DNA of 64,000 bases from Candidatus Falkowbacteria bacterium GW2011_GWF2_43_32 (GTDB lineage: Bacteria > Patescibacteriota > Patescibacteriia > Patescibacteriales > UBA12465): the NCBI GenBank assembly GCA_000999715.1, contig LCGL01000003.1, positions 26,942 to 90,941 on the forward strand. The letters run 5' to 3'. Position 1 is the stretch's first letter. Each line of letters begins with the position of its first letter. A program made the position numbers and the translations under genes. Below, piece after piece: positions 7,553-50,706 of the stretch. Under the pieces are notes generated by a model. It saw nothing but the letters and a program-made list of their open reading frames with translations, had not been told where the DNA came from and searched no databases.

Positions 7553-7576
7553 TTTGTTGTAAGAAAATCAACAATC

Positions 7577-9250: not shown

Positions 9251-9297
9251 AATCAGTATAAGCTAAATAAACAAAAATCAGTATAAACTAATAAAAC
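9251..9297 (+). repeat. Direct repeat (2 x 22 nt, 25-nt period) in the 5' leader of 9309-10244
   Basis: AATCAGTATAAGCTAAATAAAC (9251-9272) / AATCAGTATAAACTAATAAAAC (9276-9297), 19/22 identical, ends 11 nt before the start codon and abuts the SD AAGGAGG. Confidence 0.8.
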
Positions 9298-9308
9298 AAG
9301 GAGGACTA

Positions 9309-10244: not shown

Positions 10245-10255
10245 AAATTTACGAA

Positions 10256-10957: not shown

Positions 10958-11040
10958 TTGCCTACAATAAGCCAAAAATAAGGACGTTTTTCAAAAACGT
11001 CCTTTTTCATTTTTAATGATAGGTTTAATGATTAAACCTC

Positions 11041-11068
11041 TTGACAAAATCGTCATTTATGTTAAAAT
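11041..11068 (+). promoter_or_regulatory. Sigma70-type promoter (extended -10) for 11134-12549
   Basis: TTGACA (11041-11046) - 16 nt - TAAAAT (11063-11068) with TGT immediately upstream. Confidence 0.6.
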
Positions 11069-11133
11069 GATAAGATTTCTTAAAACATAAGAAATTTGAA
11101 AAATTGTAAATTAACAATCTAAATACCGAAATA

Positions 11134-19375: not shown

Positions 19376-20332
19376 TCAAAAATTTCGTCCCTCATGCACT
19401 TTACGATGAATATCTCTTAGCTGTTTGTTGGTCACATGGGTGTAGATTTGCGTCGTGGCGATATTGCTGTGACCCAAGAATTCTTGCACCGTCCGCAGGT
19501 CGACGCCTTGATTGAGCAAATCGGTGGCGAAAGAATGACGTAAAGTATGCGGAGTCGCCATCACCGGCAAACCGGTTATTTTAACATATTTTTTAACTAT
19601 ATCCTCGATACTTTTGACCGACAAACGACGCGATTGTTCGGACTGATGATTACCGCGGCGATAATTGATAAATAAAGCTTCGTCCATATCCCGACGTTCC
19701 CGTAAATAAGCGCGCAAGGCTCTAACGGCTCGCTCGGAAAAATAAACTGTCCGAATTTTTCCGCCCTTACCGATAATGGCCGTCTCAATATCAACCGTTT
19801 CATCTTTGACACGCAATTGATCGCTATTCAAAGCCGCCAATTCGGCGACACGCAAACCGGTGGAAAATAAAGTTTCCAATAGCGCCCGATCGCGCAAACC
19901 GATGACGGTATCGGCGCTGGGCGCGCTTAATAATCGCGATAACTGTTCCAATTTTAAAAACTTAACTTCTTTGTCCGCCTTGTCTTTGGCCAATTTTACT
20001 TTTGATGACGGCAGGGAAGCGATGTCTTTCTCCGCAAAAAACTCCAAGAGAGAGCGCAGAGCGATCAAATAATAATTCTGAGTCGTCTTTTTTAAAGTTT
20101 TTTTTGTTTTAGGATTGGCGTGTCGCGACAAATAAACTTTATATTGCCAAATCAATTCCGGGGTCAGGGAAGCCGGCGTTAAATTTTCCCGCTTAATTTC
20201 TTTCAACCAATAAAAAAATTTGCGCAAAAAACGAGTGTAATTTTCTTGCGTTTTAGACGACAGACCTTTCTCGATTTCGCAATAATCTAAAAAATCTATC
20301 AAATATTTAATTAACGGTTTATTTTTATCCAT
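19376..20332 (-). CDS. Tyrosine site-specific recombinase, XerC/XerD-like
   Basis: 318 aa; SAM-like N-domain; catalytic pattern GLRVAEL..HTLRHSFAT..LGHSNIATTQIYTHV (R, HxxR, H, Y). Confidence 0.9.
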   Translation of the reverse strand: MDKNKPLIKYLIDFLDYCEIEKGLSSKTQENYTRFLRKFFYWLKEIKRENLTPASLTPELIWQYKVYLSRHANPKTKKTLKKTTQNYYLIALRSLLEFFAEKDIASLPSSKVKLAKDKADKEVKFLKLEQLSRLLSAPSADTVIGLRDRALLETLFSTGLRVAELAALNSDQLRVKDETVDIETAIIGKGGKIRTVYFSERAVRALRAYLRERRDMDEALFINYRRGNHQSEQSRRLSVKSIEDIVKKYVKITGLPVMATPHTLRHSFATDLLNQGVDLRTVQEFLGHSNIATTQIYTHVTNKQLRDIHRKVHEGRNF

Positions 20333-23450: not shown

Positions 23451-24500
23451 TTATTGACTGATTACCCGGCCCTGATCGTTGTTAAAATGATCGTCAAGCA
23501 AATCGGTGGTCGGCTGTCCGAAAGAACCGGTTTTTTCCTCGCCGGTCAGCGCATCTTTGGCATAATAACGCGTCATCATCAGCAAGGGCCAAGATTGTCC
23601 GACATGTTTTTCTTCGGGAATAAACCGCACTTCAAAACCAAAACGATAACTGTCGCTGGCCGGCGTTAATTCCGCTATTTTCCAAATTATCTGACGAGTG
23701 TCGGCGTTATAATCAAACTCTCCGGCCAGAAGCGAACGATCGCCGGCCAATTCTATATTTTCCGGCAAGCGCGCACTGAAGACCAAATTTTTGAATTCCC
23801 CGTCACTGGCCGCTTCCCAAAAAATCCAATAACTGGTCGGAATGCCCACGATCGGCGGCAAAGGACCGATACCCAACTGATCTCCTTGCGGGCTGGTATA
23901 ATAAGCGACACTCTTGACCGTCAAAGCCGCCACCCGAGTGAATGACGGCAAATCAAAATTATGTTTCAATAATTTGCCGCTAAAAATATATTCGCTATGC
24001 GCCTGCCAAGCGACTTGTCGCTGAGTGGTGGCGGTCGTAAAATAAGCTTTCAAATTCACTTCCCCGCCCTGACCGACGGGAATTGCCGTCCAAGTCAATT
24101 CTCGGCCGTTAATTTTAACCGCGGTATTTTCTTCCGCCAATTCCAAACGAGTTAAAACAAAAGCCTTATCGACGGGTGCTAAATTTATTTTCAGATTGCT
24201 AATCGCCGCCGCGCCGTTATTCTGAAAACTTATTTTCAAAGGCACACCCTCTTCCATTTTAACCGCACCGGAGACGGAAGAAAAATACATATCCAAAGGA
24301 GGATTATTCAAATCCAATGTCGGTCCGCTAAAGCCGTCCAGCCAGGAAATGTTCGGTCGATAGGAATACAAAGAAATTACGCCGATCGTCAAACAGATGA
24401 CGATAATGATCAAAGACAAATCCAAAACTAAGTGCCAACGATTTTTAAAATAAAAACGCTCAAAACGTCCGCGAAAATAGCGATGGATGATTTTAATCAT
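23451..24500 (-). CDS. Membrane-anchored surface protein with Ig/DUF11-like repeat region (paralogue of 62967-64000)
   Basis: 349 aa; N-terminal TM (LVLDLSLIIIVICLTIGVISLY); shares D..RQ[IV]IW[KE]I motif region with the last ORF of the window. Confidence 0.6.
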   Translation of the reverse strand: MIKIIHRYFRGRFERFYFKNRWHLVLDLSLIIIVICLTIGVISLYSYRPNISWLDGFSGPTLDLNNPPLDMYFSSVSGAVKMEEGVPLKISFQNNGAAAISNLKINLAPVDKAFVLTRLELAEENTAVKINGRELTWTAIPVGQGGEVNLKAYFTTATTQRQVAWQAHSEYIFSGKLLKHNFDLPSFTRVAALTVKSVAYYTSPQGDQLGIGPLPPIVGIPTSYWIFWEAASDGEFKNLVFSARLPENIELAGDRSLLAGEFDYNADTRQIIWKIAELTPASDSYRFGFEVRFIPEEKHVGQSWPLLMMTRYYAKDALTGEEKTGSFGQPTTDLLDDHFNNDQGRVISQ

Positions 24501-24567: not shown

Positions 24568-26583
24568 TTAATAAAAATTCTTTAAGCCGACCAGTATCTC
24601 CGGATAATCGGCGCCATCCACTTTTCCGACCGTCACTTTGATACCGCCGTGATAATCGGCGTTATAGGCAAAAAAGCTGGACAAAGCGCGACCGGACGCC
24701 GTAAAAACGCGTACTTGCGGACCACCGCCGGATAAAGGACCGGTGACGATTTCCGCGTAACCGTCGCCGTTAAGATCGCCGACCGCCACGCTCACTCCGC
24801 CGCGAAACTTGTCATCGTAAGCCAGAAAACTATTTTCCAGGGCACCCGATAAAGAAAAAACTTTAATCAAAGCCTGTTCACCTTTGCCCGGAGCGGTGAC
24901 GATTTCGTCTTGTCCGTCTCCGTCCACGTCGCCCAAAGCGACATTGACGCCGCAACGCAAGCTTTTGTCATAGGCGAAAAAACTGCCTTCCAACTTGCCG
25001 TCAAAACTGAAAATCATCACTTGCGGACCGCCACCGACGCCGGCGCCGACAATAATTTTACGGAAATAACCGTCTTCAATCCGCGCCGCCAAACTTAATT
25101 GTTTTTTGTATAATTGGTTGTAAGGATTAAAACTGGAAAGTTGAGCGCCATTTTGATATAAACTGACTCGGCCGGCGGCGGCACTAAGATCAACCGATCG
25201 TTCGCCATTTTCGCCGGAAGTCGTGATTACTTCGGCTTCACCGGGATAATTGTTTAAATAGGAAAAGAAACCGTTACGCGTTTGCTGACCGCGGGAATTA
25301 AAGACTCGATAAAAATAGCCGTTGGAAAAAGGCGCATTTTTGATAGTATCGCCGGTTTTCAATAAAACCAAACCGTCTTCGGGCGCCAATTGAATGTAAT
25401 TTATTTTTTGTCCGTTATTGACGATTTTATCTTGCGTGCCTTTTATTTTTTCAAATTCTTCTTTGTCAAAAACGTAGGTTTGTTTTTTGCTGGTGGAGTT
25501 GACGATGGCAACGCCATTTTTAAAATCGCGACGCCAGAGTCCCGGCTGAGCCGTCCGATTGGACACGGCCAAGAGATTATAGGCCAAAGATTGCGGCGCA
25601 CCCAAATCAACATCATATTCGTCATACCACCAAGTTTGTCCGTGATCGGTGACGTCATAATCAAACCCGTAAAAACCGTCGCCCAAAAGGGCGCTGGTCA
25701 AGCCAAACCGGAAATGACGATAATCTTGCCGATTCTTATCGGAAACATTGATAACCGAAACCGACGGGGTGGCCGATAAAGACGGCAGACGCCAATAAGT
25801 ATCGATAGAGCCCGCCCATTGACCGTTACTTTCCCAGGAAGAAGGAAAACTTTCCAACATCATACCGTTCCAAAGCAAACGATAACCCTCATAAACCGTA
25901 CCGTTACCGACAATGATAAAATCGTTGCCGGCCAGGGCGCGAGTTTTGGCCAACATTTTTTTAACGCCTTCGGACCAGAGACGATCCGCTTCGGCCGCAG
26001 TCTCCCGGCGTCCGTCGTTATTAAAATCAAAATCGCCGTTGTTTAGCCAAGAAATGTTGCCCCAAATGTTGTCATAAAATACCCCATCCCACAAACCGCT
26101 GGCCTGAAGATGATTGACGACAAATTCCGGCAAATAATCGTTAAAGCGATAACCGCGATAGTCGGTTTCGGCCGCATCGGAAAGATTAAGCATGGTCGTA
26201 TTCGGCCAAACGGAAACTCCCCGTCCGCTCGTATCTTTCAGCCACCAACCGTCAATAATATTTTTCTTCAACTCCTGACGCAAATAACCGTTATCATAAT
26301 ATTCCACGCCGTTCAACATTTCTTGAGAAGAAACATAGGCCAGAATAATAATTTGCGGATTTAAAGCGCGAATTTTGGCTAATTGGGGACGACTGTTCTC
26401 CTGAACATCCATGTCCAAAATCAATAGATTCCACTTGGCCAATTCTCGCGCTTCGGCGTCGCTAATTTCCCATTTCAAAAAATAATTGGCCAAACGCGGA
26501 TAAACTGTCGGCAAATTCGCCGCCCGCGCCGTCGCGGGCCAAGATATGATGATGATAAAAAATAAAAGTAATAGCTTTTTCAT
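24568..26583 (-). CDS. Secreted protein: glycoside-hydrolase-like TIM-barrel-type N-domain + C-terminal FG-GAP/VCBS repeats
   Basis: 671 aa; signal peptide ..WPATARAAN; repeats GDVDGDGQDEIVTAPG / GDLNGDGYAEIVTGP / GKVDGADYPEILVG are FG-GAP-like; N-domain call is tentative. Confidence 0.6.
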   Translation of the reverse strand: MKKLLLLFFIIIISWPATARAANLPTVYPRLANYFLKWEISDAEARELAKWNLLILDMDVQENSRPQLAKIRALNPQIIILAYVSSQEMLNGVEYYDNGYLRQELKKNIIDGWWLKDTSGRGVSVWPNTTMLNLSDAAETDYRGYRFNDYLPEFVVNHLQASGLWDGVFYDNIWGNISWLNNGDFDFNNDGRRETAAEADRLWSEGVKKMLAKTRALAGNDFIIVGNGTVYEGYRLLWNGMMLESFPSSWESNGQWAGSIDTYWRLPSLSATPSVSVINVSDKNRQDYRHFRFGLTSALLGDGFYGFDYDVTDHGQTWWYDEYDVDLGAPQSLAYNLLAVSNRTAQPGLWRRDFKNGVAIVNSTSKKQTYVFDKEEFEKIKGTQDKIVNNGQKINYIQLAPEDGLVLLKTGDTIKNAPFSNGYFYRVFNSRGQQTRNGFFSYLNNYPGEAEVITTSGENGERSVDLSAAAGRVSLYQNGAQLSSFNPYNQLYKKQLSLAARIEDGYFRKIIVGAGVGGGPQVMIFSFDGKLEGSFFAYDKSLRCGVNVALGDVDGDGQDEIVTAPGKGEQALIKVFSLSGALENSFLAYDDKFRGGVSVAVGDLNGDGYAEIVTGPLSGGGPQVRVFTASGRALSSFFAYNADYHGGIKVTVGKVDGADYPEILVGLKNFY

Positions 26584-27919: not shown

Positions 27920-29596
27920 TTAATTAACTAATTCGCCGCCGAAAGCTTTCAACAGATTATTGACCAAACCGGGAGTCGCCTGACTGTCATTCTTGACGAC
28001 CGCAGCCTCCGTCTCCTCTTTTTCCGTTATCGCAATCTTTTCCTCTTTTTTAATTTCTAAATTCTCATCAATCTCCGAATGAAACATCAAACCGTCGCCA
28101 TAGACTTCCGCCAAAGTATTTTCCACAATACTTTTGATGCCGGCATCGTTAATCCGATCCTGATGAAATTTATATTTGAAGACCAAACAGATTTGCCCGC
28201 CGTTAACGGAACGCGGTTCGCAGTTTTGCATGATAAAAGACAAAGAATGATTGTGTTTTTTGATTTTGACCAGAAATTCCGGCCACTTGGAAGCCAATTC
28301 TTCCGCCGACAAATTAACGACCGTGGCATTTTTTTTGACCGCGCCGACCTTGACGACGTCCGGCCGGGCATTTTGTGCGGCCAAAGGAGCGGGCGCGGGC
28401 CGATCTTTAATTAAAGGACTATTGGGCGCCACTTCTTTCAATCGATTGACGACGGACGAACCAGCAGTCGGTGCAGACGGACCGGACAAACCGGTCGCCG
28501 GCAAACCGAAACATAATTCCACAACTGCCAATTCCAACGGCAATTGCGGAATCAAAGGATTTTTATTGTCCGAGGACGCTTCCAAAAATCGACGAGTAAA
28601 AAGAGTCAGCTGTTCCCATTTCAAAGTGTCGGCCGCTTGACTCAAGCGTTTTTCCAGACTTTCTCCGAAATCCAAACCCAAATTATCGGCCAATTCCGGG
28701 CTGAGCTTATTTAACATCACCTTGCGCAATATACTGATAATTTCTCCGGTAAAAACTTTAACGTTGACGCCGCTATCGGTCAAATTGTTTATCAAAGCAA
28801 TCGCCTTAGCCGCGTCTTTCCGACTCAAATGATCCAACAGATCCACCGCTTCGTTGCTGTTATAATGCGGAATGACCAATTCGGCTTGTTCGGTGGTAAT
28901 TTTTTTGTCGCCGAGAGAAAAAATTTGCCCCAACAAACTTTCGGCGTCGCGCAAATGCCCGCCGGAACGACGAGCGACCGCTTCCAAAACTTCCTGATCA
29001 ATTTCCATTTTTTCCTGAACGGAAATGTAAGATAATTTTTTGACGATTTCATTTATGCTGATGCGCTTGAAGTCAAAACGTTCACAACGGGAAATAATGG
29101 TCCCCGGCACCTTCTGCACTTCCGTGGTACATAAAACAAATATTACATAAGACGGCGGTTCTTCTATGATCTTCAGCAAGGCGTTAAACGCCGACAAAGA
29201 TAACATGTGCACTTCATCAATGATAAAAACTTTAAATTTCGCTCCGGACGGCGTCAAGCGGGAAAAAGCGATGATATTTTCCCGCACGTTGTCTACGCCG
29301 GTATTGGACGCGGCGTCAATTTCCACGATATCCATATGTCGTCCCGCGGTAATGCTCCGACAACTGGCGCATTTATTGCACGGCTCATACTCGCCGTCTT
29401 TCTTGTTTTCGCAATTGACAGCTTTGGCGAGCACCCGAGCCAAAGTGGTTTTACCGACCGCCCGCGGACCGCAAAACAAATAAGCGTTGGCCAGGCGGCC
29501 GGCGCTGATTTCATTTTGTACGGTTATTTTAATGTGATTCTGTCCGAGGACTTCGGAAAAATTCTGAGGACGATAATCACGATATAAAGTGGACAT
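27920..29596 (-). CDS. dnaX: DNA polymerase III subunit gamma/tau
   Basis: 558 aa; GPRAVGKTTLARVLAKAVNC Walker A, zinc module CNKCASC, IIDEVHML. Confidence 0.93.
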   Translation of the reverse strand: MSTLYRDYRPQNFSEVLGQNHIKITVQNEISAGRLANAYLFCGPRAVGKTTLARVLAKAVNCENKKDGEYEPCNKCASCRSITAGRHMDIVEIDAASNTGVDNVRENIIAFSRLTPSGAKFKVFIIDEVHMLSLSAFNALLKIIEEPPSYVIFVLCTTEVQKVPGTIISRCERFDFKRISINEIVKKLSYISVQEKMEIDQEVLEAVARRSGGHLRDAESLLGQIFSLGDKKITTEQAELVIPHYNSNEAVDLLDHLSRKDAAKAIALINNLTDSGVNVKVFTGEIISILRKVMLNKLSPELADNLGLDFGESLEKRLSQAADTLKWEQLTLFTRRFLEASSDNKNPLIPQLPLELAVVELCFGLPATGLSGPSAPTAGSSVVNRLKEVAPNSPLIKDRPAPAPLAAQNARPDVVKVGAVKKNATVVNLSAEELASKWPEFLVKIKKHNHSLSFIMQNCEPRSVNGGQICLVFKYKFHQDRINDAGIKSIVENTLAEVYGDGLMFHSEIDENLEIKKEEKIAITEKEETEAAVVKNDSQATPGLVNNLLKAFGGELVN

Positions 29597-29635: not shown

Positions 29636-32125
29636 CTACTTCGTTCCCAAGCCCGACCGACGGCTGATTTCCGCTTCCACCAAGCGAACATCCTGGCCAT
29701 ATTTCAAACGACTTAAAGAGCGAACTTTTTCTGCCAAACCCGGACGCTTGACGCCTAACAATGGCCAGGCGGTCTTTAAAGAGAAAGGCCGAGTAGCGCT
29801 ATTGTCAACCAATAATTTTATATAAGCCGTGCCCTTATCGATGTTAATCAAATCGTATTCGTTGAAAACCGGCGCGAACTCTTTAACCAAAAATTCGGCG
29901 TCTTCCGAGCCGATTTTAAAAGTCACCATTGTGCCAACGTTGCCGAAAACCGCATCTTTAATCTCCGTATTTTGTCCTTTGCTCAACTGACCGATATATT
30001 GATGGGCGATTACCAAATTCAACGCATATTTTCTCGCTTCCGATAATATCTGACAAATGGAATTGGTGGTAAAATTTTGAAACTCGTCGATATACAAATA
30101 AAAATCTTTACGCTGTTCGCTCGGCATATCCGTCCGACTCAAGGCGGCCATCAAAATTTTGCCGACCAAAATCATACCCAACAAATAAGCGTTCATTTCG
30201 CCGACCAGGCCTTTGGGCAAATCGATCAACAATATTTTCTGACGATCCATCACTTCGCGCAAATTAAAAGCGCTTTTCTGTTGACCGATGATCGACCGCA
30301 TCATATCGTTGGAAATAAAGGACGTCAACTTGGAAGTGATGTAAGGCACAATATTCGCCAAGGCCGCTTCGCCGCCGGCTTTTTCCGCTTCCTTTCTCCA
30401 AAAATCCACGACGGTTTGATTTTTACAACGACTTAATTTCAAGCGACGAAAATTTTCATCCGCCAAAACTTTGGGAATTTCCATTAAGGTGGAGCCTGAT
30501 TCCGGATCATCCATAATCAAAAGCATCGCGTTTCTCATATACTGCTCAAACATCGGTCCGCCGGTGGCTTTCAAGTCATATAATTTATCAAAGATGCCGA
30601 TCATTTCATTGATGACAAAACTTTTCTGTTCCGGATAGCGCGGATCATAATCCAATAAATTAAGCGACAAGGGGCGCTCCAGGTCTCCGGGAGAAAAAAT
30701 GATCACGTCTTCGGCGCGTTCCGGCGGCAAACGATCTAAAATATCGGCGATCAAATCGCCATGCGGATCAAGCACGCAAACACCTTCCCCGTTTTGAATA
30801 TCCTGAATGGCCATATTGGCCAACAAAACCGATTTACCCGTACCGGATTTACCGATGATATAAGTGTGCCGGCGTCGATCCGGTCGCTTCATGCGAATAT
30901 CTTGCTTGACGCCGCGATAAACATTTTCGCCGAGCGTAATGCCTTCATTCGGAATATTGTTGGGCGCCGGAGCAATCTTGGCCGTTAACCAAACGATATT
31001 CGGAGTCTCCGTGGTTTTTAAAGGAAAATGAAAAACACTGGCCAGCTCTTCGCTGTTTAACAAAAATCCGTATCGACCGCGAAAATAACGATAAATGAAA
31101 TCTTTAACCGTTCTGTCCGAATGTTTCTTGTCCGGACGGGAAAAAACATTGCCGTAACTGAAATTACTGTACTCGCTGAAAGCGCTGCCCAAATTTTCCA
31201 GATAAACATTGGCCTGTTCCCTGTTTTTGGCGCAAGCGATAATCCGTAAATTGACATCCAGTCCCGCCTTCAAATTTTTCTCTTCAATCGCCTTGACCAT
31301 TTCCTCCTCCACCGCCGACAATTTTTTCGGTGCCGAAGCGACTTCTTGATTGGCGGCAGTTTGCTCTTTTTTGGGACTGACCCAGAAATCACCGGCAAAA
31401 CTCAGCAAACTCCCCAAAGAACTGGCGGCTCTCAAACCGTCTTTAACGGAATTCTTCTGATGGATTTTGGCCACCGTTCGGCGCACTTTGGCGTGCCAAG
31501 CGGCTCGAGCGCTCCGCACGGTATACTGAATGGCCACACTTTCATCCTTGCCTAATTTTGACAAAATATTCACCAAAGAATTCATCGGATCAACCTCCAT
31601 TTTCTGATAAGTTTTGATGGGAAACAAAAAATCTTTACTGGTGCGCAAATAAGCGGCCGCAATCTGCCCCTGCAAACTGAAAGAATTGTAATCTTCCACT
31701 TCTTCGATCACCGCCTCCGGATAATGCGCATGAATCTGTTGTTCCAAATAACGAGCCTCGTCTTTGGGCGCCACGACATAAAAAGAGATGCGATTATGAC
31801 TGGCCACCACTTCAAAAGAAAATTGATCGTTGCGGCCATATAGCCAAGACTCGAAACCGCGTTGTGCCTTTAAACCGCCGACAGCGGCAAAAATTGTTTC
31901 TCCCTTGGCAATTTCTTCTTTAAGTTGTTGGCTGGAGCTCTCTTTCTTGTCGTCGGCCGGCTTTTCTTTGGGCAAGCGCACCAAAAAAACTTGATGACGA
32001 TAATAACGACGGCCGGAAAAAACCCAACGAATAATTTGTAAAATCAACACCACTAAAAACGCCAGGCCGATTGCGCCTAAAAAATACTGTAAAAATTCTT
32101 CAAAATTAAACGAAAAAAAATCCAT
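29636..32125 (-). CDS. Membrane-anchored FtsK/HerA-superfamily ATPase, VirD4/TraD (type IV coupling protein)-like
   Basis: 829 aa; N-terminal TM; Walker A IIGKSGTGKS, Walker B FYLYIDEFQNF, HQY..L motif; long N-terminal domain of unknown function. Confidence 0.7.
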   Translation of the reverse strand: MDFFSFNFEEFLQYFLGAIGLAFLVVLILQIIRWVFSGRRYYRHQVFLVRLPKEKPADDKKESSSQQLKEEIAKGETIFAAVGGLKAQRGFESWLYGRNDQFSFEVVASHNRISFYVVAPKDEARYLEQQIHAHYPEAVIEEVEDYNSFSLQGQIAAAYLRTSKDFLFPIKTYQKMEVDPMNSLVNILSKLGKDESVAIQYTVRSARAAWHAKVRRTVAKIHQKNSVKDGLRAASSLGSLLSFAGDFWVSPKKEQTAANQEVASAPKKLSAVEEEMVKAIEEKNLKAGLDVNLRIIACAKNREQANVYLENLGSAFSEYSNFSYGNVFSRPDKKHSDRTVKDFIYRYFRGRYGFLLNSEELASVFHFPLKTTETPNIVWLTAKIAPAPNNIPNEGITLGENVYRGVKQDIRMKRPDRRRHTYIIGKSGTGKSVLLANMAIQDIQNGEGVCVLDPHGDLIADILDRLPPERAEDVIIFSPGDLERPLSLNLLDYDPRYPEQKSFVINEMIGIFDKLYDLKATGGPMFEQYMRNAMLLIMDDPESGSTLMEIPKVLADENFRRLKLSRCKNQTVVDFWRKEAEKAGGEAALANIVPYITSKLTSFISNDMMRSIIGQQKSAFNLREVMDRQKILLIDLPKGLVGEMNAYLLGMILVGKILMAALSRTDMPSEQRKDFYLYIDEFQNFTTNSICQILSEARKYALNLVIAHQYIGQLSKGQNTEIKDAVFGNVGTMVTFKIGSEDAEFLVKEFAPVFNEYDLINIDKGTAYIKLLVDNSATRPFSLKTAWPLLGVKRPGLAEKVRSLSRLKYGQDVRLVEAEISRRSGLGTK

Positions 32126-32142
32126 GATATTAATTTTAACGC

Positions 32143-32628
32143 TTAAAATTTATCTTTTATCTTAATAATTTTATCGGTTTTAATTTTGGCCTCTTGTTCC
32201 AAGAAAAATTTATTGATACCCGGAATAATGCTCAACCAGCGCTTGATCAGTTCGATAATTTTGTTGACTTTTATTTTGGTCTGACTCAAAAGCAAATTTA
32301 TTTTTGCGGCGGTCTCTTCGCCCTGCTTTTTAAATTTCTGTTGTTCCGCCGGCTTCATTTTTAAAAAAACTTCGCTCAAACCTTCGGCCAAAATATTATC
32401 AATCGCCAATTCTCGCCGTTTTTGAAAACTCGGCATAACCGAAGCGCTCACAATCCCGCCGTCTCCGTTCGGATGGCTCTTTTCGCTAAAGGTAACTTTA
32501 TCCGGCGTCTGACGCCAAGACGGTAAAGCGCGTTCTGCTAAAGTTTCGGCGGTCGTCGACTTGTTTTCGACCGAAACCGGGGCGATTTTCTCAATCTGCG
32601 GTTGTTCAATTGTCTTTTCCTGAGCCAT
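32143..32628 (-). CDS. Hypothetical protein upstream of the T4CP-like ATPase
   Basis: 161 aa; no motif recognised; 17 nt before the ATPase start, 8 nt after the ferredoxin stop. Confidence 0.55.
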   Translation of the reverse strand: MAQEKTIEQPQIEKIAPVSVENKSTTAETLAERALPSWRQTPDKVTFSEKSHPNGDGGIVSASVMPSFQKRRELAIDNILAEGLSEVFLKMKPAEQQKFKKQGEETAAKINLLLSQTKIKVNKIIELIKRWLSIIPGINKFFLEQEAKIKTDKIIKIKDKF

Positions 32629-32636: not shown

Positions 32637-32810
32637 TTATTTAACGCTAATCGCTCCCACCGGACAACTGCCGGCCGCATCTTTAACGCAAGGTAAGGAC
32701 TTGTTTTTAATCACTTCGGCTTTGCCGTCGGCGCCAATTTTAAAAACTTCCGGACATAATCCGGCGCACATTCCGCAACCGATACACTTATTTTTATTCA
32801 CTTTTATCAT
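32637..32810 (-). CDS. Small single-cluster [4Fe-4S] ferredoxin (57 aa; missed by the ORF track)
   Basis: Manual translation MIKVNKNKCIGCGMCAGLCPEVFKIGADGKAEVIKNKSLPCVKDAAGSCPVGAISVK; CxxCxxC..CP pattern as in Thermotoga/Pyrococcus-type ferredoxins. Confidence 0.85.
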   Translation of the reverse strand: MIKVNKNKCIGCGMCAGLCPEVFKIGADGKAEVIKNKSLPCVKDAAGSCPVGAISVK

Positions 32811-32903
32811 AAAATATACCTTAATTTTTTAAAGTTTTTTCTGCCTTCATTATATCACATTTTTAAAAAAATAAAACCATTATTTTTCGCTTATTTTCCC
32901 ATA

Positions 32904-39673: not shown

Positions 39674-41404
39674 TTAACCGTCTAAATTATCGCGTCTCTC
39701 CCGCACATAACGGGCCCAATCTTCCCCGATTTCCACCAAAACTTTAAAGGGGGCTTCAATGATGAAATCAAACAAAAAGATAAAAATATTGATTTTGGAA
39801 AATTCCCGAGACAACCAGCGACCGACCAGAATAATCGGCATATAAAACAAATCCAGCAAAAAGACCAGCAGATTTTCCTTGCGTTCCACGATGACCAATT
39901 CCTTGACTCCCCGGGTCGTGATTACGCTAAAGAAACTGACGAAAGCCAAGAAGAACAAAAAGATAATAATGCTCACCCAATTGAAATTGACTTTATCCAG
40001 GGCCCAAACGATGAAGTAAACGGAAACGCAGAAAGAGGCGACATAGACCAAATTAAAGATGCCGTTTTTAAACCAATTGCGCCGCGCCGGGCGACGCAAA
40101 ACAATCGGTTGTTTTTTCTCCTGTCCGGAAAAAGTAATTTCCTTCAAACCGTTGATGATTCTTTCCGTATTGTCTTTGTTCGGCTTGCGCGTCAAAGAAA
40201 CGATGAAAAACAACAAGACTGCCGGAAAAGCGATATTGATCAACAAAGAAATGGGATTCAAGGGTTCTCCGAACCATTTGATCGCCGGAATTTCAATCAA
40301 AATCACGAAAATGGATTTAGTCAAAAAAATGTAAATGATACTGCGCGTCGCCGCCCGCCAAAGCCGATTCTTGGCCGCTTGGTATTTCTGCTCGCAGACC
40401 TTGCGGACCGACGCGATGAAACCTTTTTCTCCTTTCTGCAATTCATTATAGGTCTTCGTCGGATTACCGGCGATCGTTTCCGCCAAAATGGAAGAACATA
40501 AAGAATACACCCGAACAATGCGATCCAATTGCTTGGTCAAGGGATGAGCCAATTGTTCATCTATCACATTTTTTAATTCCTCCAGACCGGCGGCGATTTT
40601 TTGAATCACGCCCCGCTCTTCTTCGGAGATCTTCCCCGCTTGGCCAATCTCCAGCCAATTCTTATTGTAATACTTGAACAAAACAAAACTTAACATCGCC
40701 GCATCAAATTTCAAAAAATTGCGATTGATGCTCAAATAAATTTGAATCTTCAAATCGGCTTCATAAGGCAGGTCGGCCGGCAATTTTATGTCTTTGGACA
40801 AGAAGGACAAAAGATTATTGACCAATACCCTTTTCACCGGATCCGGAGACAAATTTTCTTCAATCTCGCAAGCGGCCAAAGTCAACAACCAATGAACGAA
40901 TTTATTTTTGCTGTTGATCAAATCCTTGGCAGTATTGATGTCGGTTCTTAAATTCAAATCGGCGTTAATCTTGGCGACAAACTTTTCTTTCAATAAAATA
41001 TATTTCTCCAGCAAAGCGCCGATTTCTTGAATTTTACTTTCGGGAATTTTATTGTTCGGCAAATAACTGCCGCGAATCAGTTCTATCAACAATTGCTTGG
41101 CGAGAGTCAAGCCATCCGCTCCTTTAACCACGCCTTCGATCATAATCTGCCGACGCAAAATACGGTTGATGGCGTTTTTACGAAGCAGATGATCTTCCCC
41201 GTAATCTACGGCATTCCTGACTTTCTCATAAAAAAAAGACAACCGCGAAATCAAGGTTGACACTTTAAGGCGCGGAATATTGTCGTCATCCCGCTCTTCT
41301 TTATTTTGTTCGCTATAGATTATCCGAAACAGCCTTTTCGCGTCCTCATTAATTTCCACCGCCCGCTCTTCTTCGGTTCGTTTTATTAAATTCGGACTAA
41401 CCAT
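39674..41404 (-). CDS. Large polytopic membrane protein, function unknown
   Basis: 576 aa; ~330-aa soluble helical N-domain then at least five TM segments; no motif recognised. Confidence 0.55.
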   Translation of the reverse strand: MVSPNLIKRTEEERAVEINEDAKRLFRIIYSEQNKEERDDDNIPRLKVSTLISRLSFFYEKVRNAVDYGEDHLLRKNAINRILRRQIMIEGVVKGADGLTLAKQLLIELIRGSYLPNNKIPESKIQEIGALLEKYILLKEKFVAKINADLNLRTDINTAKDLINSKNKFVHWLLTLAACEIEENLSPDPVKRVLVNNLLSFLSKDIKLPADLPYEADLKIQIYLSINRNFLKFDAAMLSFVLFKYYNKNWLEIGQAGKISEEERGVIQKIAAGLEELKNVIDEQLAHPLTKQLDRIVRVYSLCSSILAETIAGNPTKTYNELQKGEKGFIASVRKVCEQKYQAAKNRLWRAATRSIIYIFLTKSIFVILIEIPAIKWFGEPLNPISLLINIAFPAVLLFFIVSLTRKPNKDNTERIINGLKEITFSGQEKKQPIVLRRPARRNWFKNGIFNLVYVASFCVSVYFIVWALDKVNFNWVSIIIFLFFLAFVSFFSVITTRGVKELVIVERKENLLVFLLDLFYMPIILVGRWLSREFSKINIFIFLFDFIIEAPFKVLVEIGEDWARYVRERRDNLDG

Positions 41405-48216: not shown

Positions 48217-49983
48217 TTAAAAAGCAAAAGGTAATTTTCTCTTATCGACGGACGAAGTCAAAATCGGATTCCGTTTTTTTGTAAATTTAGTATGCAATAA
48301 CCGAGCGCCGAGATTTTGTTCCTTGATTCTGGCATAATATGCCAACATCGGTTTATTCTCATGCGCGCGGCGCATCAATCGATTTTTATCAATGTTATAC
48401 AGGCTTTCCCAACGTTTCCTCCTAATGGCCGCCGTAGTCGGAATCGGTTGCCCGCCACCGCCCAAACAACCGCCCGGGCAAGCCATCACTTCTATATAAT
48501 GGTATTTTTGAAGTTTTGGCAAGATGCGGGAAAAATTGCCCAAACCGTTGACGACACCCAGGCGAATTTTGCGTCCGTTTAAAACGAGAGTAGCCTCTTT
48601 AAAGCCCGCCAAACCGCGCACTTCCTTAAATTCCAGGCGTTGATCGGGTGAATGTTCCGTCGAACCGGAAGGCTTTGTCCGACCGGTCGCGGCTAGCAAA
48701 GCCGCCACGGTGCGCAAAGCCGACTCCATCACGCCGCCGGAAGCTCCGTAAATCGCCGCCGCGCCGCTACCGCGATTGAACAATTTTTCGCCGTCGGAAT
48801 CCGGCAAATTTCTAAAATCAATGTTATGTTTTTTAATCAAATAAGCGAACTCGCGCACGGTTAATACATAATCCACGAGTTTCCGCTTTTGCCATTTCAA
48901 TTCCGGGCGCGCCGCTTCATATTTTTTGGCGGTACACGGAACAATGGAAACGACGACGATTTTTTTCGGATCAAGCTTTTTTTTCTCCGCCCAATATGTC
49001 TTGATGGCGCCGGCCAAATGGATATGAGGCGAACGTGCCGTGGTCAAATGCGGCAATAATTCCGGATGATAAAATTCGGCATAGGCAACCCAGGACGGAC
49101 AACAAGAAGTCATCAACGGCCAAACCGCTTGCGGCTGACGCCAACGATCCATAAATTCTTCCGCTTCGGTCATGGTCGTAATATCGGCGCCGAAATTTAT
49201 GTCAAAAACATGAGCGAAGCCCAATCTTTTTAAAGCCGTATAAATTTTTCCTTCGCAATTCGTGCCGACAGGCAAACCGAATTCTTCTCCCAAAGATACG
49301 CGCACCGCCGGCGCAAATTGAGCGACCACGATTTTATCTTTAGCCGACAAAATTTTTTCTACTGCCGACCAATTGCCCTGCTCTTGAGCGGCGGCCACCG
49401 GACAATGCAAAGTACACTGACCGCAATAAACGCAAGCGATACTTTTATCGCGCGTCGGCCGAATCTCTTGATTGATGCCACTACCGACCACTTCCAAATA
49501 ATTAATGCCTTGCCGGGCGCAAGCTGTCACGCAATTTCGGCAATCAAAACATTGCGTGCCGTCGACTTCCACGGCTTGATCAAAACGATAAGTGCGACGG
49601 CCTTGTTTTCGATCGGAGAAACGATTGATTGGCACTTTATATTTCCGACTCAACTTTAACAGCTCGCAATCGTAAAAATAGGAACAATGACCGCATTTCT
49701 CGACATGCGCCCCGAAAATCAACTCCAAGTTGGTGCGACGCGCCTGTCTGACCCGCGGACTGTCGGTTAACACTTCCATACCGGCGACGGCGACCGTCGA
49801 GCAAGCCGTCGCCAAATTTATCCGGCCTTTGATTTCCACCGCGCAAACGCGACAATTGGCCTGAACTTCCAGGTCGGGATGATAACACAAAGACGGAATC
49901 TCTATTCCGTTTTCGCGCGCAATTTCCAAAATCGTTTGCCCGGCGCGGCCGGTTATTTGTTTATTGTTTATTTTGAGTTTCAT
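48217..49983 (-). CDS. hydA: [FeFe]-hydrogenase catalytic subunit (2Fe-2S + 4Fe-4S domains + H-cluster domain)
   Basis: Start at MKLKINNK (49983, overlaps upstream stop as TAATG); H-cluster motifs TSCCPSW, VPCTAKKYE, MACPGGCLGGGGQP. Confidence 0.9.
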   Translation of the reverse strand: MKLKINNKQITGRAGQTILEIARENGIEIPSLCYHPDLEVQANCRVCAVEIKGRINLATACSTVAVAGMEVLTDSPRVRQARRTNLELIFGAHVEKCGHCSYFYDCELLKLSRKYKVPINRFSDRKQGRRTYRFDQAVEVDGTQCFDCRNCVTACARQGINYLEVVGSGINQEIRPTRDKSIACVYCGQCTLHCPVAAAQEQGNWSAVEKILSAKDKIVVAQFAPAVRVSLGEEFGLPVGTNCEGKIYTALKRLGFAHVFDINFGADITTMTEAEEFMDRWRQPQAVWPLMTSCCPSWVAYAEFYHPELLPHLTTARSPHIHLAGAIKTYWAEKKKLDPKKIVVVSIVPCTAKKYEAARPELKWQKRKLVDYVLTVREFAYLIKKHNIDFRNLPDSDGEKLFNRGSGAAAIYGASGGVMESALRTVAALLAATGRTKPSGSTEHSPDQRLEFKEVRGLAGFKEATLVLNGRKIRLGVVNGLGNFSRILPKLQKYHYIEVMACPGGCLGGGGQPIPTTAAIRRKRWESLYNIDKNRLMRRAHENKPMLAYYARIKEQNLGARLLHTKFTKKRNPILTSSVDKRKLPFAF

Positions 49984-50692
49984 TAGTCTTTGATCTTGAC
50001 CAAATCCCGATACAACCGATAAGCGAATACCATGACCACCGGACCGATCAGCAAGCCGATAATTTGCACCAGCGCGCCGCCCAGCCACCCCCAAATATTA
50101 TTGCCCAAATATGCGGTCGGCCAAGAAATCAAACTGATAACGGCGACCAAAACCAAGCCAATCAGCAAAAATCTGCCCAAGACCGGCCACCAATAACCTC
50201 GTACCAGGGCATAACTGCGATTGACCGCATCCATGCTTTTCTTGTCTTCAAAAAAGAAAGCATAAAGAGTAAAGGCGTAAAAAATCGAAAAAATAAGCGC
50301 CGGAATCACCAAGGCGAAAAACCACAGCAATATCAAAACGCTAGTTAAAAATTCCAACGAAATATAAGACCAAAAATAGGCGGCCGATTCCCGATATATT
50401 TTTTAATCAACAGGAACAAAGACAAATAAATTCTGATCAGAAAATAAACCGTCAACAAAACGGCCCACAAGCTCAGCCAAAACCCCAGACCTAAAAAAAA
50501 CGGACTTAAACCGAGATCGGTATTGGACCCGATCAATACGACCGCGACGATGACCGCTAAGGGCACCAACGCGAAAAGAAAACCCCAAAGATAAATTAAA
50601 ACGATTTTTTTTAAATTTTTCCACCAAATTTTGACGGCACTTTCCAACAGAGAAAAACCCGGCGTTAATTTGGCTTTTTGATTTTGTTCCAT
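49983..50692 (-). pseudogene. Polytopic membrane protein gene split into two frames at an A6/T6 homopolymer (50399-50404)
   Basis: Track ORFs 50345-50770 and 49983-50357 overlap; the downstream frame is open back to the homopolymer and reads on as KIYRESAAYFWSYISLEFLT..; one extra A would fuse them into ~235 aa. Confidence 0.5.
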
Positions 50693-50706
50693 ATGATTAT
50701 GATTAA

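What the first reader, a model, noticed from the sequence alone, without database searches (positions are those of the whole stretch)
29636..32628. VirD4/TraD-like ATPase with a novel N-terminal domain, embedded in a housekeeping operon without any other T4SS genes
The 829-aa protein has one N-terminal TM and then a ~400-aa region I cannot assign. Within that region, the FSFEVVASHNRISFYVVAPKDEARYLEQQIHAHYPEA segment looks like a repeated alpha/beta module. A FtsK/HerA-type P-loop domain follows (Walker A IIGKSGTGKS, Walker B FYLYIDEFQNF), resembling type IV coupling proteins. No relaxase, VirB4, pilin or other conjugation genes are nearby. Instead the gene is flanked by dnaX, serS and a conserved-looking 161-aa hypothetical partner (32143-32628). 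That context argues for a core cellular role, for example DNA or protein translocation across the envelope or uptake from a host, rather than a mobile-element function.
Basis: partly seen in the sequence, partly recalled or inferred. Interest (0 to 1): 0.55.

Follow-up and report, generated by a model that had tools for sequence, protein, structure and literature searches.

The report
Core VirB4/VirD4-hybrid membrane ATPase of Patescibacteria
This gene encodes a membrane-anchored motor protein that joins a coupling-protein (VirD4-type) ATPase to a VirB4-like front domain; it is a conserved chromosomal gene of the ultrasmall Patescibacteria, not part of a mobile element, and its counterpart in the one genetically tractable species is very probably a gene scored essential.

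Summary
An 829-aa ORF (29636-32125, minus strand) has one N-terminal TM helix, about 330 residues with no match in the local Pfam or NCBIfam copies, and a TrwB/VirD4-type P-loop domain. A 161-aa ORF lies 17 bp upstream and dnaX and serS follow downstream. No conjugation genes were detected in the 64-kb window.

The N-terminal domain is already catalogued as Pfam DUF8128. A confident AlphaFold model matches the N-terminal domain of VirB4 (TrwK), and the full-length model aligns end to end with VirB4. By sequence, the motor half matches only coupling proteins.

The family occurs in at least 588 species-level genomes. The gene order small partner, ATPase, (pX), dnaX is conserved across several candidate phyla.

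Patescibacteria carry two DUF8128 paralogue lineages. The window protein belongs to lineage A. Synteny and a rough tree place SEML1_0142 of Southlakia epibionticum in lineage A; that gene is essential in published Tn-seq. The dispensable "T4CP" cited in the literature belongs to lineage B.

Most likely this is a core translocation ATPase that couples or energises the chromosomally fixed T4SS-like machine. A stand-alone nucleic-acid translocase is the main rival. The function itself is untested.

It is a new variant of a known kind, of moderately high interest.

The parts
29636..32125 (-). Gene for the 829-aa lineage-A DUF8128 ATPase (TM helix, VirB4-NTD-like domain, T4CP-type motor)
   Evidence: ORF. 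Pfam and PDB matches. Identical to a Ca. Falkowbacteria MAG protein that carries PF26449. Full-length AF2 model with pLDDT 81.
32012..32104 (-). Single N-terminal transmembrane helix (residues 8-38)
   Evidence: AF2 helix 8-38. Hydropathy and charge bias are conserved in 42 of 42 relatives, indicating N-out/C-in.
31031..31996 (-). DUF8128 domain (residues about 44-365), alpha/beta, VirB4-N-terminal-domain-like fold
   Evidence: AF2 model with pLDDT 81 and pTM 0.79. In Foldseek against PDB, the top 13 hits are all TrwK/VirB4, E 1e-6 to 1e-4. The full-length model aligns end to end with VirB4. Viral structural matches include phage G gp156 and gp155. No sequence-level PDB match.
30986..31051 (-). 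Highly conserved junction motif EELASxFHFPxxTTETPxIxWL (residues 359-380) between the N-domain and the motor
   Evidence: Invariant or near-invariant columns E360, H366, P368, T374, P375, I377 and W379 in alignments A1 and A2.
29756..30940 (-). T4CP-type nucleotide-binding domain (residues about 396-790)
   Evidence: PF02534 covers residues 410-747; PF10412 and PF12696 also match. TrwB 4.6e-8 and DotL 9e-4 by profile. Foldseek to TrwB gives TMt 0.60-0.64.
30830..30853 (-). Walker A (G425-S432, GKSGTGKS)
   Evidence: Read from the sequence; invariant in A2.
30287..30631 (-). All-alpha insertion (residues about 499-613), the counterpart of the TrwB all-alpha domain
   Evidence: Eight helices between strands 474-477 and 631-635 in the model. 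The PF10412 'TrwB_AAD_bind' match.
30083..30100 (-). Walker B (Y676-E681, YLYIDE, followed by FQN)
   Evidence: Read from the sequence; D680, E681, F682, Q683 and N684 are invariant.
32143..32628 (-). p161, the small partner gene. It has a variable N-terminal part of about 65 aa and a conserved helical C-terminal part of about 95 aa (nt 32143-32427).
   Evidence: ORF. A family of at least 1,001 proteins, all named hypothetical, with no Pfam domain. Directly upstream on the same strand in 56 of 72 loci. Alignment A3.
32637..32810 (-). 57-aa 4Fe-4S ferredoxin gene, the first gene of the apparent operon. It is found only in close relatives, so it is probably not part of the system.
   Evidence: Gene called with Fer4 Pfam families on the source contig. 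Sequence. Present in 16 of 81 loci.
32849..32857 (-). Candidate extended -10 promoter element (TGATATAAT) upstream of the ferredoxin-p161-ATPase-dnaX-serS gene string
   Evidence: Read directly from the sequence. This is a consensus match only, not tested. Gaps between genes in the string are 8, 17, 39 and 17 bp.
27920..29596 (-). dnaX (clamp-loader tau/gamma subunit), the conserved downstream neighbour
   Evidence: Pfam DNA_pol3_delta2 and related families. Downstream on the same strand within 4 kb in 47 of 59 loci.

Best explanation
The gene encodes a core, vertically inherited membrane ATPase of Patescibacteria.

Shown. A single TM helix anchors the protein in the membrane. A cytoplasmic domain with the fold of the VirB4 N-terminal domain follows, then a coupling-protein (VirD4/TrwB-type) motor with intact Walker motifs and an all-alpha insertion. 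The gene sits in a conserved chromosomal cluster, in the order small partner, ATPase, (pX), dnaX. It is one of two paralogue lineages; I call this one lineage A.

Inferred.
- Like its relatives, it forms a hexameric ring at the inner face of the membrane.
- It uses ATP to feed a polymer substrate, most likely nucleic acid, into or out of the chromosomally fixed T4SS-like apparatus that most Patescibacteria encode elsewhere in the genome.
- The VirB4-like domain docks the ring onto membrane components of that apparatus.
- The small upstream protein acts as a lineage-specific adaptor or regulator.
- On this reading it is the 'missing' coupling or energising ATPase of that machine, and it does not serve conjugation.
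For: Identity
- Pfam T4CP families pass their thresholds. PDB profile hits are only to the coupling proteins TrwB and DotL. Foldseek of the C-terminal half to TrwB gives TMt 0.60-0.64.
- The N-domain model matches TrwK/VirB4 (13 top hits, E down to 1.4e-6). The full-length model aligns with VirB4 over 905-953 columns at E 3e-14.
- The same fold occurs in a phage protein annotated VirB-like and in a viral 'component of type IV transporter system'.

Core status
- At least 588 species-level genomes carry a relative, and the N-domain search found 2,090 clusters at 50% identity.
- The synteny is conserved, and the protein is more conserved than dnaX in 62 of 63 loci.
- No mobile-element genes lie in the flanks.

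Two lineages
- One contig carries a 941-aa copy downstream of a Sigma70_r4/HARE-HTH gene and an 834-aa copy. They are 36.7% and 48.8% identical to the window protein.
- The published count of 5,713 T4CP homologues in 2,918 genomes is about two per genome.

Essentiality
- L089 reproduces the SEML1_0138-0146 gene order of S. epibionticum. Its DUF8128 protein groups with lineage A.
- SEML1_0142 is scored ES/ES/ES and its small upstream gene GD/ES/ES. The lineage-B gene SEML1_0293 is NE.

Link to the T4SS
- The T4SS of that organism is essential and 'lacks recognizable coupling protein'.
- VirB4 is present in 80% of Patescibacteria genomes and is usually encoded apart from the T4CP homologues.
- A gene with VirB2-like pilin topology lies next to lineage A in one locus (L088), and weak relatives of it lie about 3.5 kb upstream of the ATPase in L026 and L027.
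Against: - No experiment links this ATPase to the T4SS.
- It is almost never encoded near virB4 (148 of 5,713). None of the 80 loci, nor L091 or L092, shows VirB4, VirB6 or VirB8 genes within 8-10 kb.
- T4CP homologues occur in more genomes (96%) than VirB4 (80%), so some genomes may have the ATPase without a T4SS.
- The recurring neighbours are DNA-metabolism genes: dnaX, gyrBA and uvrA in cells, and a nickase and a partition protein in the phage relatives. These would fit a T4SS-independent DNA function equally well.
- The orthology to SEML1_0142 rests on synteny and on a rough NJ tree of a proxy protein, not on the SEML1_0142 sequence itself.
- The similarity of the N-domain to VirB4 is at fold level only (TMq 0.41-0.44); there is no sequence signal.
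Confidence: 0.5

Rival explanations
1. It is a stand-alone nucleic-acid translocase that works independently of the T4SS. It would be a membrane-anchored hexameric pump acting on DNA or RNA, for example importing host nucleic acid or handling chromosomal DNA at the membrane, together with its own partners (the small upstream protein and pX).
For: - It has its own conserved gene cluster, separate from virB4.
- T4CP homologues are more widespread than VirB4 (96% against 80% of genomes).
- Its neighbours are DNA-metabolism genes in three bacterial lineages (dnaX, gyrBA, uvrA).
- Distant phage relatives sit next to a nicking replication initiator and a partition protein.
- T4CPs belong to the FtsK/HerA DNA-pump superfamily, and HerA and TdpAB appear among the structural matches.
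- A 2026 preprint reports host-RNA uptake by a Patescibacterium and states that the mechanism is unresolved.
Against: - No membrane channel partner is encoded in the cluster, and a single TM helix per subunit is unlikely to form a conduit on its own.
- Both of its domains come from T4SS ATPase families.
- comEC-dependent DNA uptake is dispensable in S. epibionticum.
- pX and p161 have no recognisable nucleic-acid-binding domain.
Confidence: 0.25
2. It is functionally a second VirB4. It would be an assembly or pilus-biogenesis ATPase rather than a substrate-coupling ATPase, and its motor would only look like a T4CP because of sequence divergence.
For: - It has the VirB4 two-domain layout at about 830 aa, and full-length VirB4 is its best structural match.
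- An N-terminal TM helix in front of a VirB4-like domain recalls VirB3-VirB4 fusions (from my own knowledge, not tested here).
- Patescibacteria T4SS clusters encode VirB2-like pilins.
Against: - The VirB4 sequence models fail: TIGR00929 scores 22.9 bits against a cutoff of 643, there is no PF03135 match, and TrwK is not found by the family profile at E <= 1.
- The motor matches T4CP families above threshold and carries the TraG-D_C and all-alpha-domain signatures.
- The VirB4 HMM of the published survey finds only about one hit per genome, so it does not pick up these proteins.
Confidence: 0.12
3. It is an FtsK/SpoIIIE-like chromosome-segregation translocase at the division septum.
For: - It belongs to the same ATPase superfamily.
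- It is membrane-anchored.
- It lies next to replication genes, and the window holds XerC-like and FtsQ-like genes.
Against: - It has no FtsK_SpoIIIE, alpha, gamma or 4TM domains.
- S. epibionticum has a canonical, essential FtsK (SEML1_0096) in addition to both DUF8128 paralogues.
- TM7x also has a gene annotated ftsK.
Confidence: 0.07
4. It is an ordinary coupling protein of a conjugative plasmid or ICE, or a phage-derived gene that has landed in the chromosome.
For: - T4CP Pfam families match.
- There is a full-length match to phrog_5156, and relatives occur in Bacillus phages.
- An integrase-family gene lies 10 kb away.
Against: - The same housekeeping synteny holds across many species and candidate phyla.
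- There is no relaxase, MPF or phage structural gene in the window or in the flanks of relatives.
- GC content and strand bias are uniform across the window.
- The phage relatives are only about 21% identical, and only one weak hit was found in IMG/VR.
- The integrase-family gene is conserved in the same position next to the FtsQ-like and alr genes, as a XerC/D-type gene would be.
Confidence: 0.03
5. It is the ATPase of an anti-phage defence system, of the HerA or MADS type.
For: - PADLOC mad8 matches at 1.3e-15, with weak HerA hits, all on the motor domain.
- The structural matches include HerA and TdpAB.
Against: - The match covers only the generic ATPase domain.
- No nuclease, Sir2 or methyltransferase partner is present, and p161 and pX have no PADLOC hit.
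- A universal, syntenic, highly conserved and probably essential gene is the opposite of how defence genes typically behave.
Confidence: 0.03

Closest known systems
Type IV coupling proteins (VirD4, TrwB, TraD, DotL, Cag-beta)
   Same: - The motor domain has the same fold and family: Pfam PF10412 and PF02534 pass their thresholds, and Foldseek to TrwB gives TMt 0.60-0.64.
- Walker A and B motifs are present.
- An all-alpha insertion is present.
- It has an N-terminal membrane anchor.
   Different: - A VirB4-like domain of about 330 residues lies between the TM helix and the motor.
- It has one TM helix, not the usual two.
- There is no linked relaxase, Dtr or MPF gene.
- It sits at a fixed chromosomal position among housekeeping genes.
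- It scores far below every NCBIfam T4CP equivalog cutoff.
VirB4 (TrwK of R388; ConE, PrgJ and TrsE in monoderms)
   Same: - It has the overall two-domain layout at about 800 aa.
- The N-domain fold matches, and the full-length model aligns end to end with TrwK.
   Different: - It has no sequence membership (PF03135 absent; TIGR00929 at 22.9 against 643 bits).
- By sequence the motor is closer to T4CPs.
- It has its own TM helix.
- It is not encoded in a T4SS cluster.
Southlakia epibionticum SEML1_0142 with its upstream gene SEML1_0141 (Wang et al. 2023, Tn-seq)
   Same: - It is the probable lineage-A orthologue.
- It has about 380 residues in front of the P-loop domain.
- It has a small, tightly coupled upstream gene.
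- Its DUF8128 proxy P0256 shows gene-for-gene synteny with that locus and groups with lineage A.
   Different: - It is longer (1,019 aa).
- It has no Pfam T4CP hits.
- Its small partner is not detectably homologous to p161.
- Its neighbours are gyrB and gyrA rather than dnaX.
- The sequence itself was not available here.
Lineage-B DUF8128 ATPases (SEML1_0293 type)
   Same: The domain architecture is the same (DUF8128 plus TrwB_AAD_bind), and both lineages occur in the same genomes.
   Different: - They are 920-1,130 aa long.
- In the three cases seen they follow a Sigma70_r4 + HARE-HTH gene.
- They are 35-40% identical to the window protein.
- SEML1_0293 is dispensable in Tn-seq.
phrog_5156: Bacillus phage G gp156, SPO1 gp27.4, phage D6E ORF23
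   Same: Both domains match over the full length (E 4.6e-82 to the PHROG profile; N-domain Foldseek 2.6e-18, TMq 0.58).
   Different: - They are only about 21% identical.
- They are phage genes.
- They lie next to a nicking replication initiator, a partition protein, or a protein holding only the VirB4-N-domain-like fold (gp155).
- Their function is unknown.

Membership tests
Type IV coupling protein (VirD4/TrwB/TraD) | FtsK/HerA-superfamily P-loop domain with Walker A and Walker B | tested here: met
   GKSGTGKS at residues 425-432 and YLYIDE at 676-681, both invariant in 42 relatives.
Type IV coupling protein (VirD4/TrwB/TraD) | Passes the curated family models | tested here: met
   PF10412 scores 35.8 against 20.5 bits and PF02534 scores 27.7 against 20.1 bits. 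The NCBIfam equivalogs (TraD, CD1115 VirD4-like) are all far below cutoff, so it is a family member but not a member of any named subfamily.
Type IV coupling protein (VirD4/TrwB/TraD) | All-alpha domain inserted in the nucleotide-binding domain | tested here: met
   The model has eight helices at residues 499-613. Foldseek to TrwB gives TMt 0.60-0.64 over about 420 columns. This rests on a model, not on an experimental structure.
Type IV coupling protein (VirD4/TrwB/TraD) | N-terminal transmembrane anchor | tested here: met
   One conserved TM helix at residues 8-38. Canonical T4CPs usually have two (my own knowledge).
Type IV coupling protein (VirD4/TrwB/TraD) | Genetic linkage to relaxase/Dtr or mating-pair-formation genes | tested here: not met
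   None was detected in the 64-kb window, in the flanks of the 80 related loci, or in the Pfam-annotated loci L091 and L092. The literature reports 148 of 5,713 near virB4.
Type IV coupling protein (VirD4/TrwB/TraD) | Hexameric ring with substrate-stimulated (DNA-stimulated) ATPase activity that couples a substrate to a T4SS | not testable with these tools
   This needs biochemistry or multimer modelling.
VirB4 | About 800 aa with an N-terminal domain followed by a C-terminal ATPase domain | tested here: met
   The N-domain model matches TrwK (E 1.4e-6, TMq 0.41-0.44). The full-length model aligns with TrwK over 905-953 columns at E 3e-14. This is fold-level evidence only.
VirB4 | Sequence membership (PF03135 CagE_TrbE_VirB; TIGR00929) | tested here: not met
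   There is no PF03135 hit. TIGR00929 scores 22.9 against 643 bits, on the P-loop only. No VirB4 chain was found by the family profile in PDB at E <= 1.
VirB4 | Encoded within a T4SS cluster alongside VirB3, VirB6 and VirB8 | tested here: not met
FtsK/SpoIIIE | FtsK_SpoIIIE motor (PF01580) with alpha and gamma domains and a multi-TM N-terminus | tested here: not met
   None of these families is hit. A canonical essential FtsK coexists with both DUF8128 paralogues in S. epibionticum.
Pfam DUF8128 (PF26449) | Match to the family model at the N-terminus | tested here: met
   The precomputed annotation of the identical protein and of all 240 listed homologues carries PF26449. The model is absent from the local Pfam copy, so I could not rescore it.
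HerA/MADS-type defence ATPases | ATPase encoded with a nuclease, Sir2 or methylase effector in a variable defence locus | tested here: not met
   There is only a motor-domain hit to mad8 (1.3e-15). The partners have no PADLOC hit, and the context is conserved housekeeping genes.

The most novel reading that the evidence does not exclude
Lineage-A DUF8128 ATPases are the phylum-wide, essential inner-membrane motor by which Patescibacteria pull host-derived nucleic acid (RNA or DNA) into the cell. On this reading the protein is a coupling protein running in the import direction, docked by its VirB4-like domain onto the T4SS-like conduit. The fast-evolving small upstream protein and pX would act as lineage-specific or host-specific adaptors. 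This would name a candidate for the uptake mechanism that the 2026 host-RNA-feeding study describes as unresolved.
Probability: 0.15. Interest if true: 0.9.

Novelty: new variant of a known kind. Interest (0 to 1): 0.6.

Why it matters
Patescibacteria make up a large share of bacterial diversity. They cannot make their own nucleotides, lipids or amino acids, and they live attached to host cells. How material crosses between host and epibiont is an open question.

Their T4SS is essential in the one species where genetics is possible. Published descriptions say it lacks a recognisable coupling protein, and the one T4CP homologue discussed was found to be dispensable.

The analysis here indicates that two paralogue lineages have been treated as one. 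The dispensable gene belongs to lineage B. Lineage A, which includes this window's gene, is near-universal, unusually conserved, has its own partner genes, and very probably corresponds to a gene already scored essential but not discussed in the main text of that study.

That gives a concrete, testable candidate for the motor of the essential host-interaction machine.

The protein is also of evolutionary interest. It combines a VirB4-type N-domain with a VirD4-type motor, a combination that bears on how the two T4SS ATPase families diverged.

Tried and rejected
- The family profile of the N-domain finds nothing in PDB by sequence.
- A test for internal sequence repeats in the N-domain was negative.
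- p161 and pX have no Pfam, NCBIfam, PHROG, PADLOC or credible PDB sequence match. The one p161 hit (7rdr, E 3.4e-4, to a repeat protein) had no matched stretch that passed on its own, and I disregarded it.
- hhalign of the p161 family against the Moranbacteria-type upstream protein found no relationship (probability 0.4%). BLAST of p161 against the Saccharimonadia-type upstream protein found nothing.
- Cluster look-ups gave no organism names for the long DUF8128 proteins.
- The IMG/VR scan gave one weak hit covering only the C-terminal domain, which I did not pursue.
- The ferredoxin at the head of the gene string occurs only in close relatives, so I dropped it from the system.
- I could not obtain the SEML1_0142 and SEML1_0293 sequences. 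I also could not scan the rest of this genome for VirB4, FtsK, ComEC or the lineage-B paralogue.
- I considered and rejected the FtsK-substitute, mobile-element and defence readings (see the rival explanations).

Full report
**What is there.** The window is chromosomal DNA of a Candidatus Falkowbacteria (Patescibacteria/CPR) genome. The 829-aa protein is 100% identical to a protein named hypothetical on contig DNKM01000004.1 of GCA_003489845.1.

- 829 aa at 29636-32125 (-);
- 161 aa ('p161') at 32143-32628 (-), 17 bp upstream;
- dnaX 39 bp downstream;
- serS a further 17 bp downstream.

A 57-aa ferredoxin gene (32637-32810) heads the string, and a TGATATAAT element lies upstream of it.

I scanned ORFs of at least 100 aa across the whole window against Pfam or NCBIfam. 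The window holds aminoacyl-tRNA synthetases, ribosomal proteins, CTP synthase, GAPDH, an FeFe-hydrogenase cluster and cell-wall genes. No relaxase, VirB4, VirB6, pilin or phage structural gene was detected. About ten ORFs match no family. Base composition and strand bias are uniform across the window.

**Anatomy of the protein.**
- Residues 8-38 form a single hydrophobic helix. It is conserved in all 42 aligned relatives and has an acidic N-flank and a basic C-flank. Everything after it is therefore cytoplasmic, and there is no second TM segment.
- Residues about 396-790 are a coupling-protein motor. PF10412 (TrwB_AAD_bind) and PF02534 (T4SS-DNA_transf) pass their gathering thresholds and PF12696 falls just below its threshold.
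- A family profile searched against PDB sequences finds only the coupling proteins TrwB (4.6e-8) and DotL (9e-4), and no VirB4.
- The model superposes on TrwB with TMt 0.60-0.64.
- Walker A (GKSGTGKS, 425-432) and Walker B (YLYIDE, 676-681) are invariant.
- An eight-helix insertion at 499-613 corresponds to the all-alpha domain.
- All NCBIfam T4CP equivalogs score far below their cutoffs. The protein belongs to the family but to none of the named subfamilies.

**The 'novel' N-terminal domain.** My local Pfam copy has no match for residues 40-400. The precomputed annotation assigns PF26449 (DUF8128) to this protein and to all 240 listed homologues. No paper in the library mentions DUF8128.

An exhaustive search with residues 36-400 finds 2,090 clusters at 50% identity. 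The domain is always at the N-terminus, and where the protein is complete it is about 800-860 aa long.

An AlphaFold model built from a 38-sequence alignment is confident (pLDDT 81, pTM 0.79). In Foldseek against PDB, its 13 best hits are all TrwK/VirB4 of the R388 T4SS (E 1.4e-6 to 1e-4, probability 1.0, TMq 0.41-0.44).

The full-length model (pLDDT 81) has full-length VirB4 chains as its best hits, aligned over 905-953 columns (E 3e-14). TrwB matches only the C-terminal 420 residues. Foldseek alignments are sequential and the motors are homologous, so the N-domain must be aligning with the VirB4 N-terminal domain. That step is an inference.

Against viral structure predictions, the N-domain matches Bacillus phage G gp156 (2.6e-18, TMq 0.58), its neighbour gp155 (annotated 'VirB-like'), and a 'component of type IV transporter system'.

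There is no sequence-level signal for VirB4.

In short, the protein has the layout of VirB4 and the motor of VirD4.

**Distribution and context.** The 80 best loci come from Falkow-, Uhr-, Magasanik-, Komeili-, Kerfeld-, Moran- and Portnoybacteria.

Among loci with enough flanking sequence:
- a p161 homologue lies directly upstream on the same strand in 56 of 72;
- dnaX lies within 4 kb downstream in 47 of 59.

serS, pyrG, L27 and the ferredoxin are neighbours only in close relatives.

In the more distant loci a fourth conserved gene, which I call pX, lies between the ATPase and dnaX. It is about 190-230 aa and carries the motif EGVFDGxxMIGxDGKxYxVPxNYASKSKLVEGDxLKLTI (41 of 80 loci). pX is absent from this window and has no family match.

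No mobility or T4SS gene family recurs in the flanks. Pfam-annotated neighbourhoods of two further members show none either.

The ATPase is more conserved than dnaX in 62 of 63 loci (median 54% against 46%). The motor is 65% identical between clades and the N-domain 33%.

**The partner.** p161 belongs to a family of at least 1,001 proteins, all named 'hypothetical' and none with a Pfam domain. It has a variable N-terminal part of about 65 residues and a strongly conserved helical C-terminal part of about 95 residues, with a W-L-x-x-I-P-G-I-N-K-F-F-L-E-Q-E motif.

A small gene occupies the upstream slot almost everywhere. In Moranbacteria-type loci and in the Saccharimonadia-type locus, however, the occupant is not detectably related to p161 (hhalign probability 0.4%). 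One MAG (L024) has p161 fused in frame to the ATPase. With an N-out helix that topology would be awkward, so the fusion may be an assembly error.

**Two paralogue lineages, and essentiality.** A 2025 survey counted 5,713 VirD4-type homologues in 2,918 of 3,035 Patescibacteria genomes. Only 148 were near virB4, and VirB4 was found in 2,417 genomes. The authors noted that 'the' homologue in Southlakia epibionticum is dispensable, so exaptation could not be excluded.

On one 428-kb contig I found two DUF8128 proteins about 8 kb apart:
- a 941-aa copy preceded by a Sigma70_r4 + HARE-HTH gene, 36.7% identical to the window protein;
- an 834-aa copy, 48.8% identical, followed two genes downstream by a pX homologue.

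The sigma-factor arrangement recurs in L090. It is also the arrangement of SEML1_0294 and SEML1_0293 in S. epibionticum, where SEML1_0293 is scored non-essential at all three time points.

The same Tn-seq table lists a second protein, SEML1_0142. It is 1,019 aa, with the P-loop domain starting near residue 381, and is scored essential at all three time points. It is preceded, 12 bp upstream, by a 139-aa hypothetical gene scored GD/ES/ES, and gyrB and gyrA follow shortly downstream.

Locus L089 reproduces that neighbourhood gene for gene:
- a YifB-like ATPase;
- a 145-aa gene 11 bp upstream of a 1,045-aa DUF8128 protein;
- two genes on the opposite strand;
- gyrB and gyrA.

The 1,045-aa protein groups with lineage A in a rough NJ tree and by bit score (551-624 against lineage A members, 406-459 against lineage B).

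I therefore infer that SEML1_0142 is the lineage-A orthologue and that lineage A is essential in that organism. I have not seen the SEML1_0142 sequence, so this remains an inference. Wang et al. do not discuss either gene in their main text, and they describe the essential T4SS as lacking a recognisable coupling protein.

**How it most likely works.**

Shown: the domain composition, intact catalytic motifs, membrane anchoring, conserved chromosomal cluster and paralogy.

Inferred from the families: the protein forms a hexameric ring at the cytoplasmic face of the membrane and translocates a polymer using ATP.

My preferred reading (0.5) is that it is the coupling or energising ATPase of the chromosomally fixed T4SS-like machine. 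The VirB4-like domain would dock it to the machine's membrane components, and the small upstream protein would serve as an adaptor or regulator. The p161-ATPase-pX cluster would then be a substrate-side module encoded apart from the channel module, as coupling proteins often are.

The main rival (0.25) is a T4SS-independent nucleic-acid translocase. It is favoured by three points:
- the protein has its own conserved cluster;
- T4CP homologues are more widespread than VirB4;
- DNA-metabolism genes recur as neighbours: dnaX, gyrBA and uvrA in cells, and a nicking initiator and a partition protein next to the distant phage relatives.

A purely VirB4-like assembly role (0.12) is disfavoured by the sequence evidence. 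An FtsK substitute (0.07) is disfavoured because a canonical essential FtsK coexists with both paralogues. Mobile-element and defence readings are close to excluded.

**Comparison with what is known, and novelty.** The family has been counted before as 'T4CP homologues', and its N-domain is catalogued as a DUF. It is therefore not a new kind of thing.

As far as the searched literature shows, the following have not been described:
- the VirB4-like fold of DUF8128;
- the split into two paralogue lineages with distinct contexts;
- the conserved partner genes;
- the link between lineage A and an essential gene.

A 2026 preprint reports that a cultivated Patescibacterium takes up host RNA, possibly through T4SS-like tubes, by a mechanism described as unresolved. 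A phylum-wide nucleic-acid motor that is very probably essential is an obvious candidate for that role. This is the most novel reading the evidence does not exclude, and I give it a probability of about 0.15.

**Verdict.**
- Observation: confirmed.
- Interpretation: partly supported. The gene is core and not mobile, but the N-domain is not new in kind and a T4SS role is not excluded.
- Novelty: a new variant of a known kind.
- Interest: 0.6.

Noticed in passing
L088 10001-12826 and 8758-9855; L090 7250-10225 and 6199-7242: Lineage-B DUF8128 ATPases (941-991 aa) are preceded by a gene with Sigma70_r4 + HARE-HTH domains. This is the same pairing as SEML1_0294 and SEML1_0293 in S. epibionticum. 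It suggests a conserved sigma-factor/ATPase pair of unknown function.
   Followed up: partly
L024 3694-6726: A single 1,010-aa ORF fuses a p161-like protein in frame to the ATPase; there is no stop codon at the junction. It could be a real gene fusion or a MAG consensus error. With an N-out TM helix the fused part would end up on the wrong side of the membrane.
   Followed up: partly
e.g. L060 10535-11101; L088 19267-19821; absent from the window: pX is a conserved gene of about 190-230 aa between the ATPase and dnaX in 41 of 80 loci. It has an N-terminal coiled-coil-like part and a strongly conserved C-terminal motif (EGVFDGxxMIGxDGKxYxVPxNYASKSKLVEGDxLKLTI). It matches no known family.
   Followed up: partly
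L077 7571-8002; L063, L068, L073, L079, L080 upstream genes; L089 7552-7989: The small gene immediately upstream of the ATPase is present almost everywhere. It belongs to at least three families with no detectable relationship to one another: p161-type, Moranbacteria-type and Saccharimonadia-type. Each has a disordered N-terminal part and a short helical C-terminal part.
   Followed up: yes
L083 (phage G) 4336-8478; L084 (SPO1) 4797-10307; L085 (D6E) 4899-9043: Distant full-architecture relatives occur in Bacillus and thermophilic phages (gp156, gp27.4, ORF23). They lie next to a 'replication initiation by nicking' gene, a 'partition protein', or (in phage G) gp155, which has only the VirB4-N-domain-like fold. 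Their function in phages is unknown.
   Followed up: partly
L088 19976-20692; L027 4169-4576; L026 4355-4798: A gene with VirB2-pilin-like topology (signal peptide plus two hydrophobic helices, with a weak T4SS_pilin Pfam hit) lies between the lineage-A ATPase and pX in L088. Weak relatives of it lie about 3.5 kb upstream of the ATPase in L026 and L027. This is the only hint of a T4SS link in the neighbourhoods.
   Followed up: partly
window 24568-26583 and 23451-24500: A 671-aa secreted protein with GHL15 glycosyl-hydrolase-like and FG-GAP repeat domains, followed by a 349-aa protein with no family. The pair is conserved downstream of serS in the close relatives.
   Followed up: no
window 786-12549 and 39674-41404: About nine ORFs of 230-580 aa match no Pfam or NCBIfam family. 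They are interspersed with genes that have only weak, sub-threshold GNVR or PKD matches and lie beside glycosyltransferase genes, so this may be a surface or envelope gene region.
   Followed up: no
window 48217-51732: A cluster holding an FeFe-hydrogenase large subunit and a NuoF-like flavoprotein, next to GAPDH. This looks like fermentative hydrogen metabolism in this Falkowbacteria genome.
   Followed up: no
window 19376-20332: A tyrosine recombinase (phage-integrase family) lies beside the FtsQ-like and alanine racemase genes. It is in the same position in relatives (L092), so it is more likely XerC/D-type than a marker of a mobile element.
   Followed up: partly
window 29636-32125 (residues 417-769): The motor domain matches the PADLOC model mad8 (a MADS defence-system component) at 1.3e-15. 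This points to a shared ATPase ancestry between some defence ATPases and coupling proteins.
   Followed up: partly
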